Virus genome (UHGV): UHGV-0778877
DNA length: 14,363 bases
Source: a virus
Direction: 5' to 3' (one strand)
Within the stretch, counting starts at the first letter, position 1. The number at the start of each line of letters is the position of its first letter. The position numbers and the translations under genes were made by a program. This document shows, piece after piece, positions 1 to 11,263 of the stretch. The notes under the pieces were generated by a model, which searched no databases, was not told the DNA's origin, and worked only from the letters and a program-made list of their open reading frames with translations.

Positions 1-130
1 TTGAAGATGCGTCGTACACGAGAACATGGCGCGGAAGATGGATAATCAGCAACTCATGCGCATCAAACCGCAGCGATTCCATCACGCCATCAGCCAGTTC
101 ATCAGCAGTGTAGGAGCGTAGTATTTTATC
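1..130. repeat. Direct-repeat copy of an internal gp10-like gene segment (copy A); 127 nt exact, 129/130 overall, matching 2271-2400
   Basis: Read directly: window 1-127 is letter-for-letter identical to 2271-2397; position 128 differs (a vs c); 129-130 match; sequences diverge completely from 131 versus 2401. Confidence 0.9.
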
Positions 131-506: not shown

Positions 507-962
507 CTATCTCCCGTAATTCAGGAAGTCGATTAGTTCTTCGCGTGTGGCGCTGTAAAAAGTCACGTCATCCACGCCTTTGAAGTATTTCTTGATGGTT
601 CCTACACGCTTAAGGCCAATCATTGCGCAGTACATCTGACCGTGGCGGAATTTGCGCGCAGCGAACGATGTGACGCACTGAACGGTGGTGTTAGTCAGAA
701 TGTATCGCCAGAACGCCAGCCCGATTTCCTTGCTGAATCCACGAACCTCTGGCAGGTACATGGCGTGGCAATCAAAGGTCAAAGGCTGAATCTCCTGATA
801 GTAAACAATGCCGCCGAACTGCCCGTGCACGTTCACCTCGAAGTAACGGCATTCAGGCTTGTAGTCGTATCCATCACCGTTATTGCTTCCGGCGATAATG
901 TCAGGGTGATTTCCGACTGCTTCGATCAGGTCGATGTTTCGCGTTGGTTTGAACTGAATCAT
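507..962 (-). CDS. gp14-like head/ejection-protein assembly protein (assigned by synteny)
   Basis: 151-aa ORF, ATG at 962 overlapping the upstream stop (TAATG), stop 2 nt before the next gene start. Position between tail needle and gp7 matches P22/Sf6 gene order. The family name is an inference; the CDS call is strong. Confidence 0.6.
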   Translation of the reverse strand: MIQFKPTRNIDLIEAVGNHPDIIAGSNNGDGYDYKPECRYFEVNVHGQFGGIVYYQEIQPLTFDCHAMYLPEVRGFSKEIGLAFWRYILTNTTVQCVTSFAARKFRHGQMYCAMIGLKRVGTIKKYFKGVDDVTFYSATREELIDFLNYGR

Positions 963-1810
963 TACTGCTCCGCGATTATCTTGATGGTTGTGGCAGTAAA
1001 CGCCGCACCATTCGACTGAATGGTTAACGTACTGCCATTTGTGGCAAGAAAGCCGTCTTTATCCACACTGAAGAACGTAGCTAACAGGATGTTGTCGGTT
1101 GTTGTCGCCGCATTACGACTGCTGACCAGCGTATCAGGAACAGAACCGGAGAATGTTAGCTGCATTGACCTGTTGGCGGTTCCGCTGGGCCACGTCCCGA
1201 CAATCGACAGCTTGAAGAACAAGGTTTTGTTCTCGTTGAACACAACCATCTTGTTGTTAACGGTGTCGAAGAATGGTGCCAACGTTCCGGATGACGGCGT
1301 GAGCGTTTTCAGCAGGCTAACAAGGTTGGTCGGCGCTGTCGGGATGGTTACAGATACTCCTGAGTAAACAACCTCTGATTTCTTGCGCGTGGTGGCATAC
1401 TCAAGAGCATCGATGCGCGTCTCATGGTCTGAAAGCGTGTTTTGAATGGCGACAACTTCATCCGTCAGATAATCAATATCGTTTTCTGCTGTCGTTAATC
1501 GCGAATCAAGGCCGACTATCGCCGCTTCTGCGTTAGTGATCCTTGTTTCGTGGTCCTGTATCTTCGCTTCAGCCGATGCCAGTCGAATTTCGTGATCGAC
1601 CAGAATCACATCCTGCTCATCGTTCCTGACTTGTGCATCATAAGCGCCCTGTCCGACCTCGTTGGCCTTGTTAGCAACGTTACCAACATCAGTACCCTGT
1701 GCGATAACGTACAGCAGATATGACTGCGAGAAGATATTGCGTGGAAGGACTGATGTGTCGAGCCGCGTAGCCTGGATGATTACCGGCTCATTGAGATTCG
1801 AATCAGCCAT
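962..1810 (-). CDS. Tail needle protein (P22 gp26 / Sf6 gp9 family), 282 aa, with a C-terminal knob-like extension
   Basis: ATG at 1810 overlaps the gp10-like stop (TAATG), with AGGA 7 nt upstream. N-terminus [25 protein letters not shown] is the conserved gp10-binding tip of tail needles. The middle is heptad-rich with three DHE(T/I)R(I/L) repeats (coiled coil). The last ~140 aa are a Ser/Thr/Asn-rich beta-type domain absent from the short P22-type needle. The 316-aa ORF-track version is an upstream in-frame extension into gp10. Confidence 0.85.
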
Positions 1811-3228
1811 TACTCGATCCTTATCTGGCAGCCTGACAGAGTGACAGGTGACTTCGTGATAACGCGCAATTTGAAGCCGACATTTTTCCTGATGCGCCCG
1901 ACTCGCTTCCACAAAACGCGCTTGTCGTAAACGAACGGTTCATTCTGCTCAATCATCTGCTCACGCCCGTAATTGATGCCGTCAGTGGTTGCAGAGAGGA
2001 ACAGGCGGTCAGCGTACTGCGCAACGCCAGTTGACGATTCAACCTCAAGGTCGAAAACTCTGGCGTTATCTGCTTTGAAGAGTGGAGTAAACAGCAGGTG
2101 TTCCTGTTGCTTGTCGTACTGGCTGCTGATATCGAACTGCAGTTTACCGGTAACAGATTCCAGCTTATCGCCGCACGTTATCTGATTGCCTTCGTAAATG
2201 AAGTCGATAGCGCGGTACACATCGTCATACAGACCTGTTTTCAGCACACACCATTGCGGACCATTGGCGCTTGAAGATGCGTCGTACACGAGAACATGGC
2301 GCGGAAGATGGATAATCAGCAACTCATGCGCATCAAACCGCAGCGATTCCATCACGCCATCAGCCAGTTCATCAGCAGTGTAGGAGCGTAGTATTTTCTC
2401 AGTGCTCGCGCTGGCGATTGGTGATACCTGACCGGAGCCTATGATGTATACAGACGGCGCACCTGTTGCCGGATTGCTGATGAACGCATACGAGTCAGCA
2501 AACGGCGTTTTGCAGTAAGTCCCGGCAATGCCTTTCTGCACCATCAGTGATGGCTGTGCGACATACAAAGCGGCACCAACGGTGGTTGCACCTGTCAGGG
2601 AAAAATATTCAATCGTCGATGAGCCAAAGCAGACGATGAAGTCTCGCCATGTACCTATGCCGATGATGCCGTCCGGCTGAGACTCGGCACGATATTGTGC
2701 ACTGTAGCGGTCAGGATGCGATTCATCTTCAAGGTCAGTGATAAACCATGAATCAGTGCCGTCTTTTGACCACGCATAACGCCCACGTAAGCGCGTAATG
2801 TCGCGAACTGAACCTAACTCATACTGAGTGAATCCACTGTCTGTAGGCCAGTTTGAGACGGTTTTAACCGTGCCATCATAGCGATACTCGACCAGTTGAC
2901 CATTAACGCCTACCGCCTGTGATGTCCGACCATGCGCCATTGATACACGACCACTTCCGGCAACGTCACCGACTTCACTTTCTCCTTTGTACAGCTTGCC
3001 ACCACACACACGATAAACAGCACTCTGCGCCATGTTGTACTCGACGCCTCGCGATACTCCGTTCACATCAGAACGTTTGGCAATGCCCGGGAATGAGCGA
3101 AGATATCCGCTGCTGTTCAGGATTTCTTTGGGTGTAGCCAGCATATTCACTGGCAGATAGTCGATATAGTCGGCATTTCGGAAGTCTTTGCCGACACCTT
3201 TCATGAGCGGAAGTTGCTGAATCGGCAT
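1810..3228 (-). CDS. Head completion / tail hub protein, P22 gp10-like, 472 aa
   Basis: 472-aa ORF ([33 protein letters not shown]...), same length and recognisable sequence as P22 gp10; start ATG overlaps the gp4-like stop by 1 nt. Confidence 0.9.
2271..2400. repeat. Direct-repeat copy B, lying inside the gp10-like CDS (about codons 277-320)
   Basis: Same comparison as copy A; this copy is in its native coding context within the 1810-3228 ORF. Confidence 0.9.
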
Positions 3229-3728
3229 TATTCGCTCCCGTTATCGCAAGGTTCCTTTCGGTGGAAGTAATTCCAACCGTTCCACTTCGCCAACTGGTTA
3301 CCGCTACCAACAGGCATACGGTTTGGATAACCGGACTTACATTTAGCGGCTTTTGCTCTGTCCATTGCAGACAGTTTGACGAGTCGCTCTTTCCCGTATC
3401 TGGCAGTGGTTATAAGTTTTGCTGACGCTTCCAGCGCATAATCCGGAGCAATGCGGCAGGCAAGGTTGAAAATGACGGCATTGATAGCGTTATTTGATAA
3501 GCCGTGCTCATCGCCCGGATCCGGAGCGACATCTGCATCAGCAAAAATGTAGCCAACGTTGATACCAGGTGACACATCACCGCCAAGCCATTCAGCCATC
3601 ATCATTTCAAGGTCGTTGACCCCGTCTTCCATAGACTGCGGTTCGACATCGGTTAACGTGGCATTTGATGCAACACCGAGCTTACGTAATGCTGCAAGGA
3701 CTAAATCACCCTTCGTTGTCAGGTTCAT
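3228..3728 (-). CDS. Head completion protein, P22 gp4-like, 166 aa (alternative upstream ATG at 3797 would give 189 aa)
   Basis: The ORF-track frame is 189 aa; an internal ATG at 3728 gives 166 aa ([19 protein letters not shown]...), the length I recall for P22 gp4. The N-terminal 23 codons of the long form overlap the upstream small ORF. Start choice is uncertain. Confidence 0.8.
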
Positions 3729-3936
3729 CTGCTGCCGCCTTAGGTTTTCGATCAGGCTTTTTACGCTGTTTTTCTTCTGGCTCTGGCTCTGCAACATCCT
3801 TCAAAAGGTCATCAGGATGTGAAAACCAACCAGCATCCAGATATTCCTGAAGCTCTTCGGCTTTCACGATTTCAAAGTCGTAGCCAACGCCTTTCCACTT
3901 CTTCATGTCGCCATGACGAAAGATCATGTGTGTCAT
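3706..3936 (-). CDS. Small hypothetical protein with acidic, Lys/Pro/Glu-rich C-terminus, between coat and gp4-like genes (76 aa from the ATG; 92 aa if the GTG at 3984 is used)
   Basis: ATG at 3936 preceded by GGAGA about 6 nt upstream; the ORF-track start at 3984 is a GTG overlapping the coat stop. P22-like head modules carry a small ORF at this position, as far as I recall. No function recognised. Confidence 0.55.
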
Positions 3937-8366: not shown

Positions 8367-9866
8367 TTAAGTTCTCCGTGCGATGGGCCTGATTGGGGCT
8401 GGTATCTTTTTCTCTTTTGGTTTTTTGATGTCGCGCATCATTTTGGCGAAGCGGCGCATCATGTATGCATAGCGAACGGCTGAGAGAACATCGTCGTTAA
8501 GCTTGACGATCTTCCCGTTTTCATCACGGTGATAGAGGCGGAACTCCTCAAAGAATGGCTCACAGGTGTTGAATACTTTGAAGCGACCATCGAGCATCAT
8601 GTCGCGCAATTCAGTGATGCCAGGCTCCACAGCATTACCGCCATCAGGCCATGTCGCATGCTCCTGCAACATCATAAAACCAGCGTCGGCATACTGCCCT
8701 TTGAGCTGCTCACCGCCGCCCTTCTCATGCTGGTTTCCGTCATGAGGCCATGCGGTTGGCACTTTATGCGCCCATGATTTAACGGCTCCCCACGCCTGAA
8801 CGGCTGTTTTTTCTTTCGCCTTCCACACGCGTGAAACGTAGATTGTGTCTGCGTCCTTATCCCACCAAAGCTGAACCTGCGCCTGTGGGTGATCCCATCC
8901 GAAATCCATCCCGCCAATTACGTAGAAGTGATCAGGACACTCGAACGGCTGACACTTAATCGTCTCTTCCGGTATCTGGAAGATTCGACCACTACCCATC
9001 GTAGGAATACCGCGAGCACGCGCCTCTCTCTCATGCTCTGGATAGGATGCGATGATTTGCTCTTTCTGCTCGTCGGTATAGTGCTCAGCGTCATAGATGG
9101 TCATGTTGACCACTTTCTGCGACTTGCTGGGATTCTTCAGGAACTTGGTAACAACGTCAGACATCCCCATCAGCGGGGTAAACGTCAGAATTGAGAATTG
9201 CCCGTATTTGTTGGTACGGGTAAGACCTTCGCCATAAATGCTGTATGGTGGCTCTTCGTCAAACCACACGCCGTGGATTGTGTCACCCTGCCAGCGAGCA
9301 CGGCCTTGCGAGTATGGTTTGAAGTAGCAGATTGAAATGCCATCTTCAACGCCATCAGCCGTGTGATGCTTAACCAGAAGATGATCAACAAGGTTCGGAA
9401 AGAAAGGAGACTTCTTCCAGCTAATGATGTCTTCTTTCGGTATGGAACCGTAGCCAGGCTCATCATTCTCTTCGATACGACCGCACAGGATGCGTTGAGT
9501 CGTTTTGGTTACAGTCTCGTTTGTCTCGCCACCAATCCAGAAGACAACAGGCTCATAGAAACGCTTACCTTTCCACTCCCCACCATATTTACCATCAGCA
9601 GGATATCCTTTTGTGCCCGGATAACGCCCGGTAAGGTGAAATGCGACTTCAGCAGCACCAGTAAATGACTTACCAAGCTGGTTACCAGCCATAAAACAGC
9701 GCTCTGGATAGTCATGCCCGGCGTCGATGAACTCACGCTGTTTGCTGTATGGCGTAAATTCATATAGCAGGTGTGTGTTCCGGTAGTTCTCTTCTTCTTC
9801 GAGTAGCTCGAGCAATTCGATTTGCTCTTCGTCGCTCAGGTTATCAAGAATCGCGTCCAGTTCCAC
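8367..9866 (-). CDS. terL: Terminase large subunit, P22 gp2-like, 499 aa
   Basis: 499-aa ORF with ATPase and nuclease character, located between small terminase and portal. The first codon at 9866 is GTG, not ATG (read from sequence), with AAGGAG about 10 nt upstream; no in-frame ATG lies nearby. It overlaps the terS 3' end by 23 nt. Confidence 0.9.
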
Positions 9867-10338
9867 GGTTGAATAGCTCCTTGATACGAGAGCGCCGCTT
9901 ATCGCGATCTCCCTTATCAGGTGTCACGTCTTCAACTTGCGACTGCTCTTTGAGGCCCAAATCACGGGCGATGATGTTAGCGTTGAGAAGGTCAGCGGCT
10001 GCGCCAGAGAATTTCTGGTCGTAGATGACCTGCTCTGCTCGCGTAACGACTTCAGATAAATCTTCTCTCAGGCGATATGTGCGCCATGTTTCAAGCGTCA
10101 CATCAATGAACAGAGTGAGGCCTGTAATAGTCATCGCTCGCATCTTGGCGATAGGCTCTTGTATCACTTCACCCTGATACGAGAACGCCTTCATCTCCCA
10201 TAGCGGGTTAGCTTCTACCCACTCGAAGTATTCACAACAAGCAGCCCACAGCGCCTCAGGCGATTCGAATTTAGGATTTCGCCCATGACTACTGCGGGCC
10301 TCCCAAAATCGGTTGCCCTTTGGTGCTGCCATATTCAT
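9844..10338 (-). CDS. terS: Terminase small subunit, P22 gp3-like (164 aa from the ATG at 10338; 162 aa from the ATG at 10332)
   Basis: [52 protein letters not shown]..., recognisable as P22 gp3; two in-frame ATGs 6 nt apart; it contains the pac-like sequence listed below. Confidence 0.9.
10044..10065 (-). other. Candidate headful packaging initiation site (pac), P22-type, inside terS
   Basis: The minus-strand sequence GAAGATTTATCTGAAGTCGTTA encodes EDLSEVV within terS, the codon context in which the 22-bp P22 pac site lies; it matches or nearly matches the P22 pac sequence as I recall it from memory (not checked). Confidence 0.45.
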
Positions 10339-10355
10339 CTCACTTAGTTGTTATT

Positions 10356-10535
10356 TCAGGCTGATGACTCTTTCGCGCCTTCAATCAATGACTGCTTCAG
10401 CAATTCGAGTGTGCCAATCGCCTCACATAAACTGATTTCACCATCGTAATCATGAATGACGCTTTCCAGCCGCTCGTATAGCTCTTGAGTAATTGGGAAT
10501 TTCTTCTCCTTACCCAAATTGATTACGCGGCTCAC
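10356..10535 (-). CDS. Unlisted small ORF, 59 aa, GTG start, tightly coupled to the upstream 80-aa ORF (alternatively a frameshifted continuation of it)
   Basis: Hand translation of the minus strand: GGAG, then 6 nt, then GTG at 10535, one nucleotide after the upstream TGA; it reads VSRVINLGKEKKFPITQELYERLESVIHDYDGEISLCEAIGTLELLKQSLIEGAKESSA, then TGA. It is below the apparent 60-aa cut-off of the ORF track. This frame is open for about 8 codons upstream of the GTG, inside the 80-aa ORF. Confidence 0.4.
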   Translation of the reverse strand: MSRVINLGKEKKFPITQELYERLESVIHDYDGEISLCEAIGTLELLKQSLIEGAKESSA

Positions 10536-10536
10536 A

Positions 10537-10779
10537 TCATGCTCCGGTGGTGAACAGGTCTAACGCTTCCTTCGATTTACGCACCGCTTCGAATGTGCGG
10601 ATCGTGATATCCGAATTAGCGCCGCCTGACTGGAAGTGAATTTTGAATAGCTCAAGCTTCAACTCGTCAGTACCAATGAACTGAAATGCTTCTTCTGCGG
10701 CTGCGTTCTGGTTCATGACCAGCTTGTAAATCTCTAACTGGAATTTCTGTTCTTCAGTCATGGGAATAATCTCTGCCAT
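10537..10779 (-). CDS. Hypothetical protein, 80 aa
   Basis: ATG at 10779 with GGAG about 7 nt upstream; no family recognised; sits between the gp49/gp66-like gene and terS in the late operon. Confidence 0.6.
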   Translation of the reverse strand: MAEIIPMTEEQKFQLEIYKLVMNQNAAAEEAFQFIGTDELKLELFKIHFQSGGANSDITIRTFEAVRKSKEALDLFTTGA

Positions 10780-10800
10780 TGTTGGCTCCGTTTATCCGTT

Positions 10801-10829
10801 AAAAGGGATATCAGTTAAGTTATCCCGTG
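10801..10829 (-). terminator. Weak hairpin plus short T-run between the gp49/gp66-like gene and the 80-aa ORF
   Basis: Inverted repeat GGGATA (10805-10810) and TATCCC (10821-10826) with a 10-nt loop; on the minus strand it is followed by TTTT. The stem is short and AT-rich, so any terminator function would be weak. Confidence 0.2.
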
Positions 10830-10882
10830 TAGGGTATAAGCCATTATCAAAGCCACTCTGTAGGGAATGGCTTTTGTAATAA

Positions 10883-11263
10883 CTACTGTTCGCTTAGCTT
10901 CTGCTTCAGCAAGTAACCTTCGAGCATCCAGATTTTGTTTACAGCATTTTGCCGGGCAATCTTCCGACCAATTTCTGCATCAAAGTTTTCCGGGCTCGCA
11001 CAGGCACTCTCTCCGGTGACGGTGAAGCCATTCTTCAGCACCAGTACGCAGAAAGTGAGCAACTTCAATGGTGATAAATCACGATCGCCTTCTTCTGGTT
11101 TTTCCCTGCCACAATATTCGTTGCTGGAAATGGCACCATTTCGTCCATCACAAGCAGTAAAGTAATGCTCGCTTTTAATCACGTCTTCGATGTGCTGCGG
11201 GGTGATTCGCGGTGCCGTTTTGCCTTTCTCAACGATTTCTTTTTCGATTTGCTGGTCGTTCAT
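10883..11263 (-). CDS. Phage gp49/Sf6 gp66-family protein (function unknown), 126 aa
   Basis: 126-aa ORF containing the stretch ...LKNGFTVTGESACASPENFDAEIGRKIARQNAVNKIW..., which I recognise as characteristic of the N4 gp49 / Sf6 gp66 family; placement just upstream of the terminase genes fits. Weak Shine-Dalgarno. Confidence 0.6.
   Translation of the reverse strand: MNDQQIEKEIVEKGKTAPRITPQHIEDVIKSEHYFTACDGRNGAISSNEYCGREKPEEGDRDLSPLKLLTFCVLVLKNGFTVTGESACASPENFDAEIGRKIARQNAVNKIWMLEGYLLKQKLSEQ

What the first reader, a model, noticed from the sequence alone, without database searches (positions are those of the whole stretch)
962..1810. Tail needle with conserved N-terminal tip but a long C-terminal knob-like domain in an otherwise P22-like head module
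The first about 60 residues and the heptad-repeat coiled coil (with three DHE(T/I)R(I/L) repeats) are typical of gp26-type needles. The last about 140 residues (nt about 965-1378) form a Ser/Thr/Asn/Gly-rich, probably beta-structured domain that the 233-aa P22 needle lacks. At 282 aa it resembles the knob-bearing needles of Sf6/HK620-type phages. The needle distal end contacts the cell envelope during infection, so this is a likely host-range or entry determinant and a recombination mosaic point.
Basis: partly seen in the sequence, partly recalled or inferred. Interest (0 to 1): 0.5.

Follow-up and report, generated by a model that had tools for sequence, protein, structure and literature searches.

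The report
Ordinary Sf6-type knobbed phage tail needle
This gene encodes the well-known Sf6-type "tail needle knob" protein of a P22-like E. coli prophage: its knob is 99% identical to two solved crystal structures and about 15% of complete E. coli genomes carry it, so it is real but ordinary.

Summary
Window 962-1810 (minus strand) is an intact 282-aa ORF lying between homologues of P22 genes 10 and 14.

- **Residues 1-68:** the gp26-type plug, 81% identical to P22 and 97% to Sf6.
- **Residues 61-139:** an unbroken 11-heptad coiled coil with three DHExR[IL] motifs.
- **Residues 131-282:** identical at 150 of 152 positions to the crystallised Sf6 knob (PDB 3RWN), and similarly close to the HS1 knob (4K6B). 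It matches Pfam PF16532 at 362 bits, and the L-glutamate-contact residues E146, K200, S248 and D250 are conserved.

A database protein differing by one residue (V52A) is seen on 45 contigs. The knob DNA is in 821 of 5426 complete E. coli genomes, where PGAP names it "tail needle knob protein". That same protein sits next to P22-, Sf6- and CUS-3-type head modules and five different tailspikes, so the combination seen here is routine.

The mosaic claim is correct. Homology to IME10, HK620 and P22 stops at about codons 67-74 and resumes exactly at gene 14. The shaft (codons 69-126) is only 36% identical to Sf6.

Two points are wrong. HK620's needle has no knob (233 aa, P22-type tip). Published chimeras show the knob does not set host specificity; it affects DNA-delivery kinetics. 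Verdict: already known, low interest.

The parts
962..1810 (-). Tail needle gene (homologue of P22 gene 26 and Sf6 gene 9), 282 codons plus TAA
   Evidence: ORF and translation. phrog_1030 'tail needle knob' matches full length at E=8e-134. 85% aa identity to Sf6 gp9. P0001 differs by one residue, V52A.
1607..1810 (-). Codons 1-68: N-terminal plug domain that docks in the gp10 tail hub
   Evidence: 97% identical to Sf6 and 81% to P22. Matches PDB 8EAP_B, 2POH, 3C9I and 4ZXQ. The docking role comes from the literature (PMC9728967).
1394..1606 (-). Codons 69-139: trimeric coiled-coil shaft; the unbroken heptad register spans residues 61-139 (11 heptads); the three DHExR[IL] motifs lie at residues 72, 86 and 128
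   Evidence: Heptad register analysis and motif positions.
1433..1606 (-). Codons 69-126: shaft block that diverges from Sf6 (36% aa; ~50% nt in its centre), an allele common in E. coli prophages
   Evidence: Sliding identity to Sf6, per-domain identity, and the 99%-identical database proteins P0001-P0120.
965..1393 (-). Codons 140-282: Sf6-type knob domain, a TNF-like jelly roll
   Evidence: 150/152 identical to 3RWN over residues 131-282, with HS1 4K6B about as close (E=1.1e-89). PF16532 at 362 bits over residues 109-282. Model TM 0.81 to 3RWN and 4K6B; the next hits are TNF-family proteins and PRD1 P5. E146, K200, S248 and D250 are conserved.
963..1589 (-). Segment with no nucleotide homology to the knob-less needles of IME10 and HK620 (P22 homology ends at 1608); the mosaic replacement block
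   Evidence: blastn breakpoints: IME10 and HK620 match 1590 onward and up to 962; P22 matches 1608 onward and up to 964.
1810..3228 (-). Gene 10 homologue (tail hub, 472 aa), the needle's docking partner
   Evidence: PF11134 at 994 bits; 93% aa identity to P22 gp10.
507..962 (-). Gene 14 homologue (DUF2824, 151 aa), immediately downstream with an overlapping start
   Evidence: PF11039; 93% aa identity to P22 gp14.

Best explanation
The gene encodes the tail needle of a P22-like (Lederbergvirus-type) temperate phage or prophage of Escherichia, of the already described Sf6 type.

**Shown here by sequence and structure comparison.** The protein has three modules:
- an N-terminal ~68-residue domain of the gp26 type;
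- an 11-heptad coiled-coil shaft;
- a C-terminal ~143-residue TNF-like jelly-roll knob that keeps the four L-glutamate-contact residues and the S-R-N tip triad.

**Taken from published work on P22, Sf6 and HS1.** The protein forms a trimer. Its N-terminal helical hairpins plug the channel of the hexameric gp10 tail hub and hold the packaged DNA in. The shaft projects past the six tailspikes. After the tailspikes digest O-antigen, the tip reaches the outer membrane, the needle is released, and the ejection proteins (gp7, gp20, gp16) and the DNA follow. The knob modulates the kinetics of DNA delivery rather than host choice.

**Inferred.** This copy is functional as a gene.

**Evolution.** The gene is a three-part mosaic. 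The plug end is shared with all P22-like needles. The shaft comes in several alleles and lengths. The knob cassette is nearly invariant, and its 3' boundary is exactly the gene 26/14 junction.
For: - **Solved structures:** 3RWN (Sf6 knob) E=3.6e-90 and 4K6B (HS1 knob) E=1.1e-89, with 150/152 residues identical to 3RWN. P22 and HK620 needle chains match residues 1 to ~144 only.
- **Families:** PF16532 Phage_tail_NK at 362 bits against a cut-off of 27. phrog_1030 'tail needle knob' matches full length; phrog_1219 'tail needle protein' matches residues 1-146.
- **Fold:** a single-sequence AF2 model is all-beta. It superposes on 3RWN and 4K6B at TM 0.81, followed by EDA-A1, Eiger TNF and PRD1 P5.
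- **Ligand residues:** E146, K200, S248 and D250 are conserved, as is the S231-R232-N233 triad.
- **Heptads:** register analysis.
- **Synteny:** Q antiterminator, lysis genes, terminase, portal, scaffold, coat, gp4, gp10, needle, gp14, gp7.
- **Purifying selection:** 29-32 nucleotide differences from six other prophage copies, but only one amino-acid change.
- **Frequency:** 821 of 5426 complete E. coli genomes carry the knob DNA, annotated 'tail needle knob protein'.
- **Mechanism:** PMC3741392, PMC9728967, PMC9400499.
Against: - Nothing contradicts the identification.
- Trimer formation, virion incorporation and L-glutamate binding are inferred from 99%-identical solved proteins, not tested here.
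- The AF2 model was made without an alignment and has only moderate confidence (pLDDT 64.6).
- The neighbouring gene 7 is broken at window 128 by an odd junction, so this particular prophage copy may be rearranged or misassembled.
- The exact protein has a private A52V change in the plug domain, of unknown effect.
Confidence: 0.95

Rival explanations
1. The knob is a receptor-binding, host-range-determining domain. It would recognise a specific Escherichia/Shigella envelope component and thereby decide which hosts can be infected.
For: - The needle tip is the first part of the tail centre to touch the outer membrane.
- In 2013 the knob type was found only in P22-like phages of Escherichia and Shigella and in none of 48 Salmonella P22-like phages. 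The authors left open a specific function during Sf6 infection of Shigella (PMC3741392).
- The TNF-like and adenovirus/PRD1-like knob fold is used for receptor binding elsewhere (literature).
Against: - P22 chimeras with Sf6 or HS1 knobs infect Salmonella with normal titre and infectivity. Even a foldon tip gives viable phage, and L-glutamate-site mutants are normal (PMC3741392).
- All Sf6 host-range expansion mutations map to the tailspike (PMC9400499).
- The same needle protein (P0001) is linked to tailspikes of 479, 555, 646 and 690 aa here, and the closely related P0071 to one of 583 aa, so it does not co-vary with the known specificity determinant.
- The knob is nearly invariant (at most 4.9% divergence per PMC3741392), unlike typical receptor-binding domains.
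- 99%-identical needles are now recorded in a Klebsiella phage and in an assembly labelled Salmonella.
Confidence: 0.08
2. The long C-terminal part is an artefact: a gene fusion, frameshift or annotation error that joins the needle to an unrelated neighbouring gene.
For: None beyond the length difference from P22 gp26 (282 aa against 233 aa).
Against: - The same 282-aa architecture occurs in Sf6 gp9 and in more than a hundred near-identical database proteins.
- The knob follows the coiled coil in the crystallised constructs.
- Gene 14 follows intact with an overlapping start.
Confidence: 0.01
3. The gene is intact, but it lies in a defective or rearranged prophage, or in a tandemly duplicated segment, so in this genome it may not contribute to infectious virions.
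For: - Window 1-127 is an exact copy of 2271-2397 (inside gene 10), joined at position 128 to the middle of gene 7. This truncates gp7 after ~125 codons.
- PMC3741392 reports more than 100 E. coli genomes with small P22-like remnants that keep an Sf6-type needle gene.
Against: - All other late genes in the window are full length.
- The junction is in none of 5426 complete E. coli genomes nor in GTDB representatives.
- The exact repeat length of 127 nt equals a common assembler k-mer, which suggests an assembly artefact at a contig end.
Confidence: 0.2

Closest known systems
Shigella phage Sf6 gp9 tail needle (282 aa; knob structure PDB 3RWN)
   Same: Same length, same three-module architecture and same gene position. 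The plug domain is 97% identical and residues 127-282 are 98.7-100% identical. The L-glutamate and phosphate-site residues are conserved.
   Different: Shaft codons 69-126 are only 36% identical, a different coiled-coil allele. The knob carries S234A and S270A. Sf6 has a different head module; its homology to the window stops at 3233, the gp4/gp10 boundary.
E. coli prophage HS1 tail needle (317 aa; knob PDB 4K6B) and the 317-aa needle of E. coli SJC33
   Same: The SJC33 knob DNA is 100% identical over 414 nt. The HS1 knob protein matches about as closely as the Sf6 knob (E=1.1e-89) and shares A270 with the window.
   Different: The HS1-type shaft has 16 heptads, 35 residues more than here (PMC3741392).
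Salmonella phage P22 gp26 (233 aa; PDB 2POH, 3C9I)
   Same: Homologous plug domain (81% identity over residues 1-68), the same heptad shaft plan with 11 heptads, and the same position between genes 10 and 14.
   Different: Its C-terminal tip (residues 141-233) is unrelated in sequence and fold. Nucleotide homology ends at window 1608, about codon 67-68.
Phage HK620 gp26 (233 aa; PDB 5BU5) and phage IME10 gp26
   Same: Same plug domain. IME10 is the closest deposited phage genome to the window as a whole (87% covered at 95.9% identity).
Knob-domain homologues outside P22-like phages (RB43, 44RR2.8t, Vi01/Cba120-like myophages, Vibrio, Aeromonas and Klebsiella phages); structural relatives PRD1 P5, the adenovirus fibre knob and the TNF family
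   Same: A C-terminal domain of the same family at 30-57% identity. 134 clusters at 50% identity were found in 1.84 billion proteins, with the matched domain at or near the C terminus in most. TNF-like fold hits.
   Different: They are attached to other N-terminal parts and their function is unknown. They are not tail-hub plugs.

Membership tests
Sf6-type tail needle knob protein (Pfam PF16532 Phage_tail_NK; phrog_1030) | C-terminal domain scores above the curated Pfam threshold for Phage_tail_NK | tested here: met
   362.1 bits against a cut-off of 27, over residues 109-282 and profile positions 2-175 of 175. phrog_1030 at E=8.4e-134.
Sf6-type tail needle knob protein (Pfam PF16532 Phage_tail_NK; phrog_1030) | Knob nearly identical to the Sf6 and HS1 knobs (all P22-like-phage knobs differ by at most 4.9%, PMC3741392) | tested here: met
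   150/152 residues identical to 3RWN; 4K6B is about as close (E=1.1e-89).
Sf6-type tail needle knob protein (Pfam PF16532 Phage_tail_NK; phrog_1030) | TNF-like jelly-roll fold of the knob protomer | tested here: met
   The AF2 monomer model superposes on 3RWN and 4K6B at TM 0.81. The next hits are EDA-A1, Eiger TNF and PRD1 P5. Model confidence is moderate, so the stronger evidence is the 99% identity to the crystal structures.
Sf6-type tail needle knob protein (Pfam PF16532 Phage_tail_NK; phrog_1030) | Conserved L-glutamate-contact residues (Sf6 numbering E146, K200, S248, D250) and the S231-R232-N233 tip triad | tested here: met
   All are present at the same positions (sequence). Residue list from PMC3741392.
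Sf6-type tail needle knob protein (Pfam PF16532 Phage_tail_NK; phrog_1030) | Homotrimer with bound L-glutamate at the subunit interfaces | not testable with these tools
   Only monomer prediction is available. Inferred from the 3RWN and 4K6B trimers.
gp26-type tail needle of P22-like phages (any tip type) | N-terminal ~60-residue domain homologous to the P22 gp26 plug | tested here: met
   81% identity to P22 over residues 1-68. 8EAP_B at E=2.7e-27 and 2POH at E=5.7e-45.
gp26-type tail needle of P22-like phages (any tip type) | Continuous heptad-repeat shaft | tested here: met
   A single register over residues 61-139, with 77% core-type residues at a/d positions against 28% elsewhere.
gp26-type tail needle of P22-like phages (any tip type) | Gene lies between the tail-hub gene 10 and gene 14 in the late operon | tested here: met
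   PF11134 upstream and PF11039 downstream, with overlapping start and stop codons.
gp26-type tail needle of P22-like phages (any tip type) | Plugs the gp10 channel, retains DNA and is released on infection | not testable with these tools
   Needs virion biochemistry or cryo-EM. Known for P22 and Sf6 (PMC9728967, PMC3741392).
P22-type needle tip (P22, HK620 and epsilon34 subtypes; C-terminal part of phrog_1219) | C-terminal ~90 residues homologous to P22 gp26 residues 141-233 | tested here: not met
   PDB matches to P22 and HK620 chains end at query residues 144-153. There is no nucleotide homology in window 963-1589. phrog_1219 matches residues 1-146 only.

The most novel reading that the evidence does not exclude
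The most novel reading still open has two parts. First, the Sf6-type knob could have a function specific to natural Escherichia/Shigella infection, for example sensing an envelope cue through its glutamate-loaded interfaces to time needle release. Salmonella chimeras could not have revealed this. Second, the source genome could really carry a head-to-tail duplication of the gene 10'-needle-gene 14-gene 7' unit, giving two needle copies. Neither would be specific to this allele, which is otherwise a common one.
Probability: 0.1. Interest if true: 0.35.

Novelty: already known. Interest (0 to 1): 0.08.

Why it matters
It matters little beyond correct annotation. The window is a clean textbook example of intragenic mosaicism in P22-like phages: a conserved hub-docking end, exchangeable shaft alleles and lengths, and an almost invariant knob cassette bounded by the gene end. 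The natural breakpoint at codons 67-74 coincides with the site (codon 69) that Leavitt et al. chose to build viable P22/Sf6 hybrids. The knob should not be taken as a host-range marker when typing prophages; the tailspike is the determinant.

Tried and rejected
- **NCBIfam scan of the needle:** no family matched, even though PGAP names relatives 'tail needle knob protein'. Pfam and PHROGs were used instead.
- **Primary Sf6 knob paper (PMC3162447):** not held. It is cited only through PMC3741392 and PMC9728967.
- **Structure prediction:** a single-sequence AF2 run on the knob gave only moderate confidence (pLDDT 64.6). It was adequate to recover 3RWN but adds nothing beyond the 99% sequence identity.
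- **Alternative start:** the GTG at 1912 (316 aa) was rejected, because it lies inside gene 10 and the Sf6-length homologues start at the ATG at 1810.
- **Source of the window and the odd 127-nt junction:** no complete E. coli genome covers the junction, and there was no exact match to the junction 40-mer in GTDB representative genomes. None of six contigs encoding the nearest protein is the source; they are 95-98% identical at nucleotide level.
- **Exact identity to P0001:** the '100% identity' shown is a rounding. The two proteins differ at residue 52.

Full report
**What is at the coordinates**

Window 962-1810 holds a minus-strand ORF of 282 codons, from the ATG at 1810 to the TAA at 962-964. 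Its ATG shares one base with the stop codon of the upstream gene (TAATG). Its stop shares one base with the ATG of the downstream gene. An AAGGA motif lies 7 nt upstream of the start. The mechanical ORF list also gives a 316-aa version starting at the GTG at 1912. That extension lies inside the upstream gene, and the Sf6-length relatives begin MADSNLN at the ATG.

**Checking the observation**

Every descriptive element holds.
- **N terminus:** residues 1-68 are 81% identical to P22 gp26 and 97% to Sf6 gp9.
- **Coiled coil:** a single heptad register runs without interruption from residue 61 to 139. The a positions read N-L-L-I-I-I-L-I-V-L-I. Core-type residues fill 77% of a/d positions against 28% elsewhere.
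- **Motifs:** three DHExR[IL] motifs sit at residues 72, 86 and 128, with each His at a d position.
- **C-terminal part:** residues 143-282 are 27% Ser+Thr against 13% in the first half. P22 gp26 has no homologous part.

**What it is**

- **Solved structures.** The best hits are the crystallised knobs of phage Sf6 (3RWN, E=3.6e-90) and prophage HS1 (4K6B, E=1.1e-89). Identity to 3RWN is 150/152 over residues 131-282. P22, HK620 and engineered gp26 chains match residues 1 to about 144 only.
- **Protein families.** Pfam PF16532 ('Sf6-type phage tail needle knob') scores 362 bits against a cut-off of 27. PHROGs gives phrog_1030 'tail needle knob' over the full length and phrog_1219 'tail needle protein' over residues 1-146.
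- **Fold.** A single-sequence AlphaFold model of residues 131-282 is all-beta (pLDDT 64.6). It superposes on 3RWN and 4K6B at TM 0.81. The next hits are TNF-family proteins (EDA-A1, Eiger), C1q-like proteins and PRD1 P5. This agrees with the published description of a TNF-like jelly-roll trimer (PMC3741392).
- **Ligand sites.** The four residues that hold the bound L-glutamate in the Sf6 and HS1 knobs (E146, K200, S248, D250) are in place, as is the S231-R232-N233 tip triad.

**Context**

All genes in the window are on the minus strand and form a P22-type late operon. In order they are: Q antiterminator, holin, endolysin, Rz, small and large terminase, portal (721 aa), scaffold (303 aa), coat (431 aa), gp4, gp10 tail hub, needle, gp14 and the start of gp7. 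Identities to P22 proteins range from 60% to 93%. The closest deposited phage is IME10, with 87% of the window covered at 95.9% identity.

**How common it is**

- A protein differing by a single residue (P0001; V52 here, A52 there) is on record from 45 contigs. More than a hundred 98-99%-identical variants exist, named 'tail needle knob protein' in E. coli, E. albertii and E. fergusonii.
- The knob DNA occurs in 821 of 5426 complete E. coli genomes.
- 160 complete genomes cover at least 80% of the whole 14-kb window at about 96-97% identity.
- Leavitt et al. (PMC3741392) had already counted 69 Sf6-type knobs among 164 P22-like genomes.

**Mosaicism**

- **Against knob-less needles.** Nucleotide homology to IME10 and HK620 runs to window 1590, and to P22 to 1608, which is codons ~67-74. 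It vanishes through 963-1589 and resumes exactly at the gene 14 start.
- **Against Sf6.** The flanks are 93-98% identical, but gene positions ~210-376 (codons 69-126) drop to about 50% nucleotide and 36% amino-acid identity.
- **Against a longer needle.** In E. coli SJC33, a knob segment that is 100% identical over 414 nt is attached to a 317-aa HS1-type needle with five extra heptads.
- **Across phage backgrounds.** The protein P0001 is found next to P22-type, Sf6-type (coat 423 aa, portal 708 aa) and CUS-3-like (coat 417 aa, portal 733 aa) head modules. It is found with tailspikes of 479, 555, 646 and 690 aa; the close variant P0071 goes with a 583-aa tailspike.

The combination of a P22-type head with an Sf6-type needle is routine. 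Across six other copies the gene shows 29-32 nucleotide differences from the window but one amino-acid change. That indicates strong purifying selection.

**Mechanism**

Shown here: the three-module anatomy and its identity to solved structures.

From the literature:
- The trimer's N-terminal hairpins form a quasi-six-helix bundle that plugs the hexameric tail hub (PMC9728967).
- The needle projects beyond the tailspikes, touches the cell surface and is lost before the ejection proteins and DNA exit (PMC9400499; PMC3741392).
- P22 hybrids with the Sf6 knob (fused at codon 69) or the HS1 knob infect Salmonella normally.
- Glutamate-site mutants are normal.
- Even a foldon tip gives viable phage.
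- Altered tips slow K+ efflux, so the authors assign the tip a role in the kinetics of DNA delivery, not host specificity.
- Sf6 host-range expansion mutations all map to the tailspike.

- HK620's needle is 233 aa with a P22-type (subtype A) tip. The knob-bearing examples are Sf6 and HS1.
- The host-range reading is not supported by experiment.

**Wider family**

The knob domain alone finds only 134 clusters at 50% identity among 1.84 billion representative proteins. The match lies at or near the C terminus in most of them, in proteins of up to 1811 aa. It occurs at 30-57% identity in T4-like, Vi01-like, Vibrio, Aeromonas, Dickeya and Klebsiella phages. This extends the 21 'outside' matches reported in 2013.

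**Verdict**

This is a real feature, correctly recognised as a knob-bearing needle. It is already described structurally, genetically and in routine annotation, so interest is low.

Noticed in passing
window 1-130 and 2271-2400; junction at 127/128: Window 1-127 is an exact copy of 2271-2397 (inside the gene 10 homologue). At position 128 it joins the middle of the gene 7 homologue, so the gp7 ORF (start 504, minus strand) is truncated after ~125 codons and stops at 82. The geometry is that of a head-to-tail junction of a 2270-bp unit comprising gene 10', the needle, gene 14 and gene 7'. The 127-nt length equals a common assembler k-mer. The junction is absent from 5426 complete E. coli genomes and from GTDB representatives. 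It is either a real duplication or an assembly artefact; this is undecided.
   Followed up: partly
L012 (Klebsiella phage phiKp_30, needle at 9001-9849); L013 (GCA_007889425.1, labelled Salmonella enterica, needle at 10001-10849): Sf6-type knob needles of 282 aa (P0071 is 99% identical in protein; the phiKp_30 gene is ~94% identical in DNA) occur in a phage isolated on Klebsiella pneumoniae and in an assembly labelled Salmonella enterica. The 2013 survey found this needle type only in Escherichia and Shigella phages. The host labels were not verified.
   Followed up: partly
window 3228-3797 (minus strand): The gp4 (tail adaptor) homologue is listed as a 189-aa ORF, whereas P22 and the related prophages have 166 aa. 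The Pfam match starts at residue 25. The true start is probably an internal ATG, with a small upstream gene overlapping as in the related loci.
   Followed up: no
window 1657 (codon 52 of the needle): V52 in the plug domain is private to this window among the sequences compared. Sf6, HS1-type, P22, HK620, IME10 and the nearest database proteins all have Ala at this position.
   Followed up: no
window 10883-11263 and 10537-10779 (minus strand): Between the lysis cassette and the small terminase lie a Phage_gp49_66 (N4 Gp49 / Sf6 gene 66) family protein and a DUF2560 protein. This region differs between otherwise similar prophages; KilA-N, pRha or T5orf172 genes sit there in L005-L013. It is a second mosaic hot spot.
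   Followed up: no
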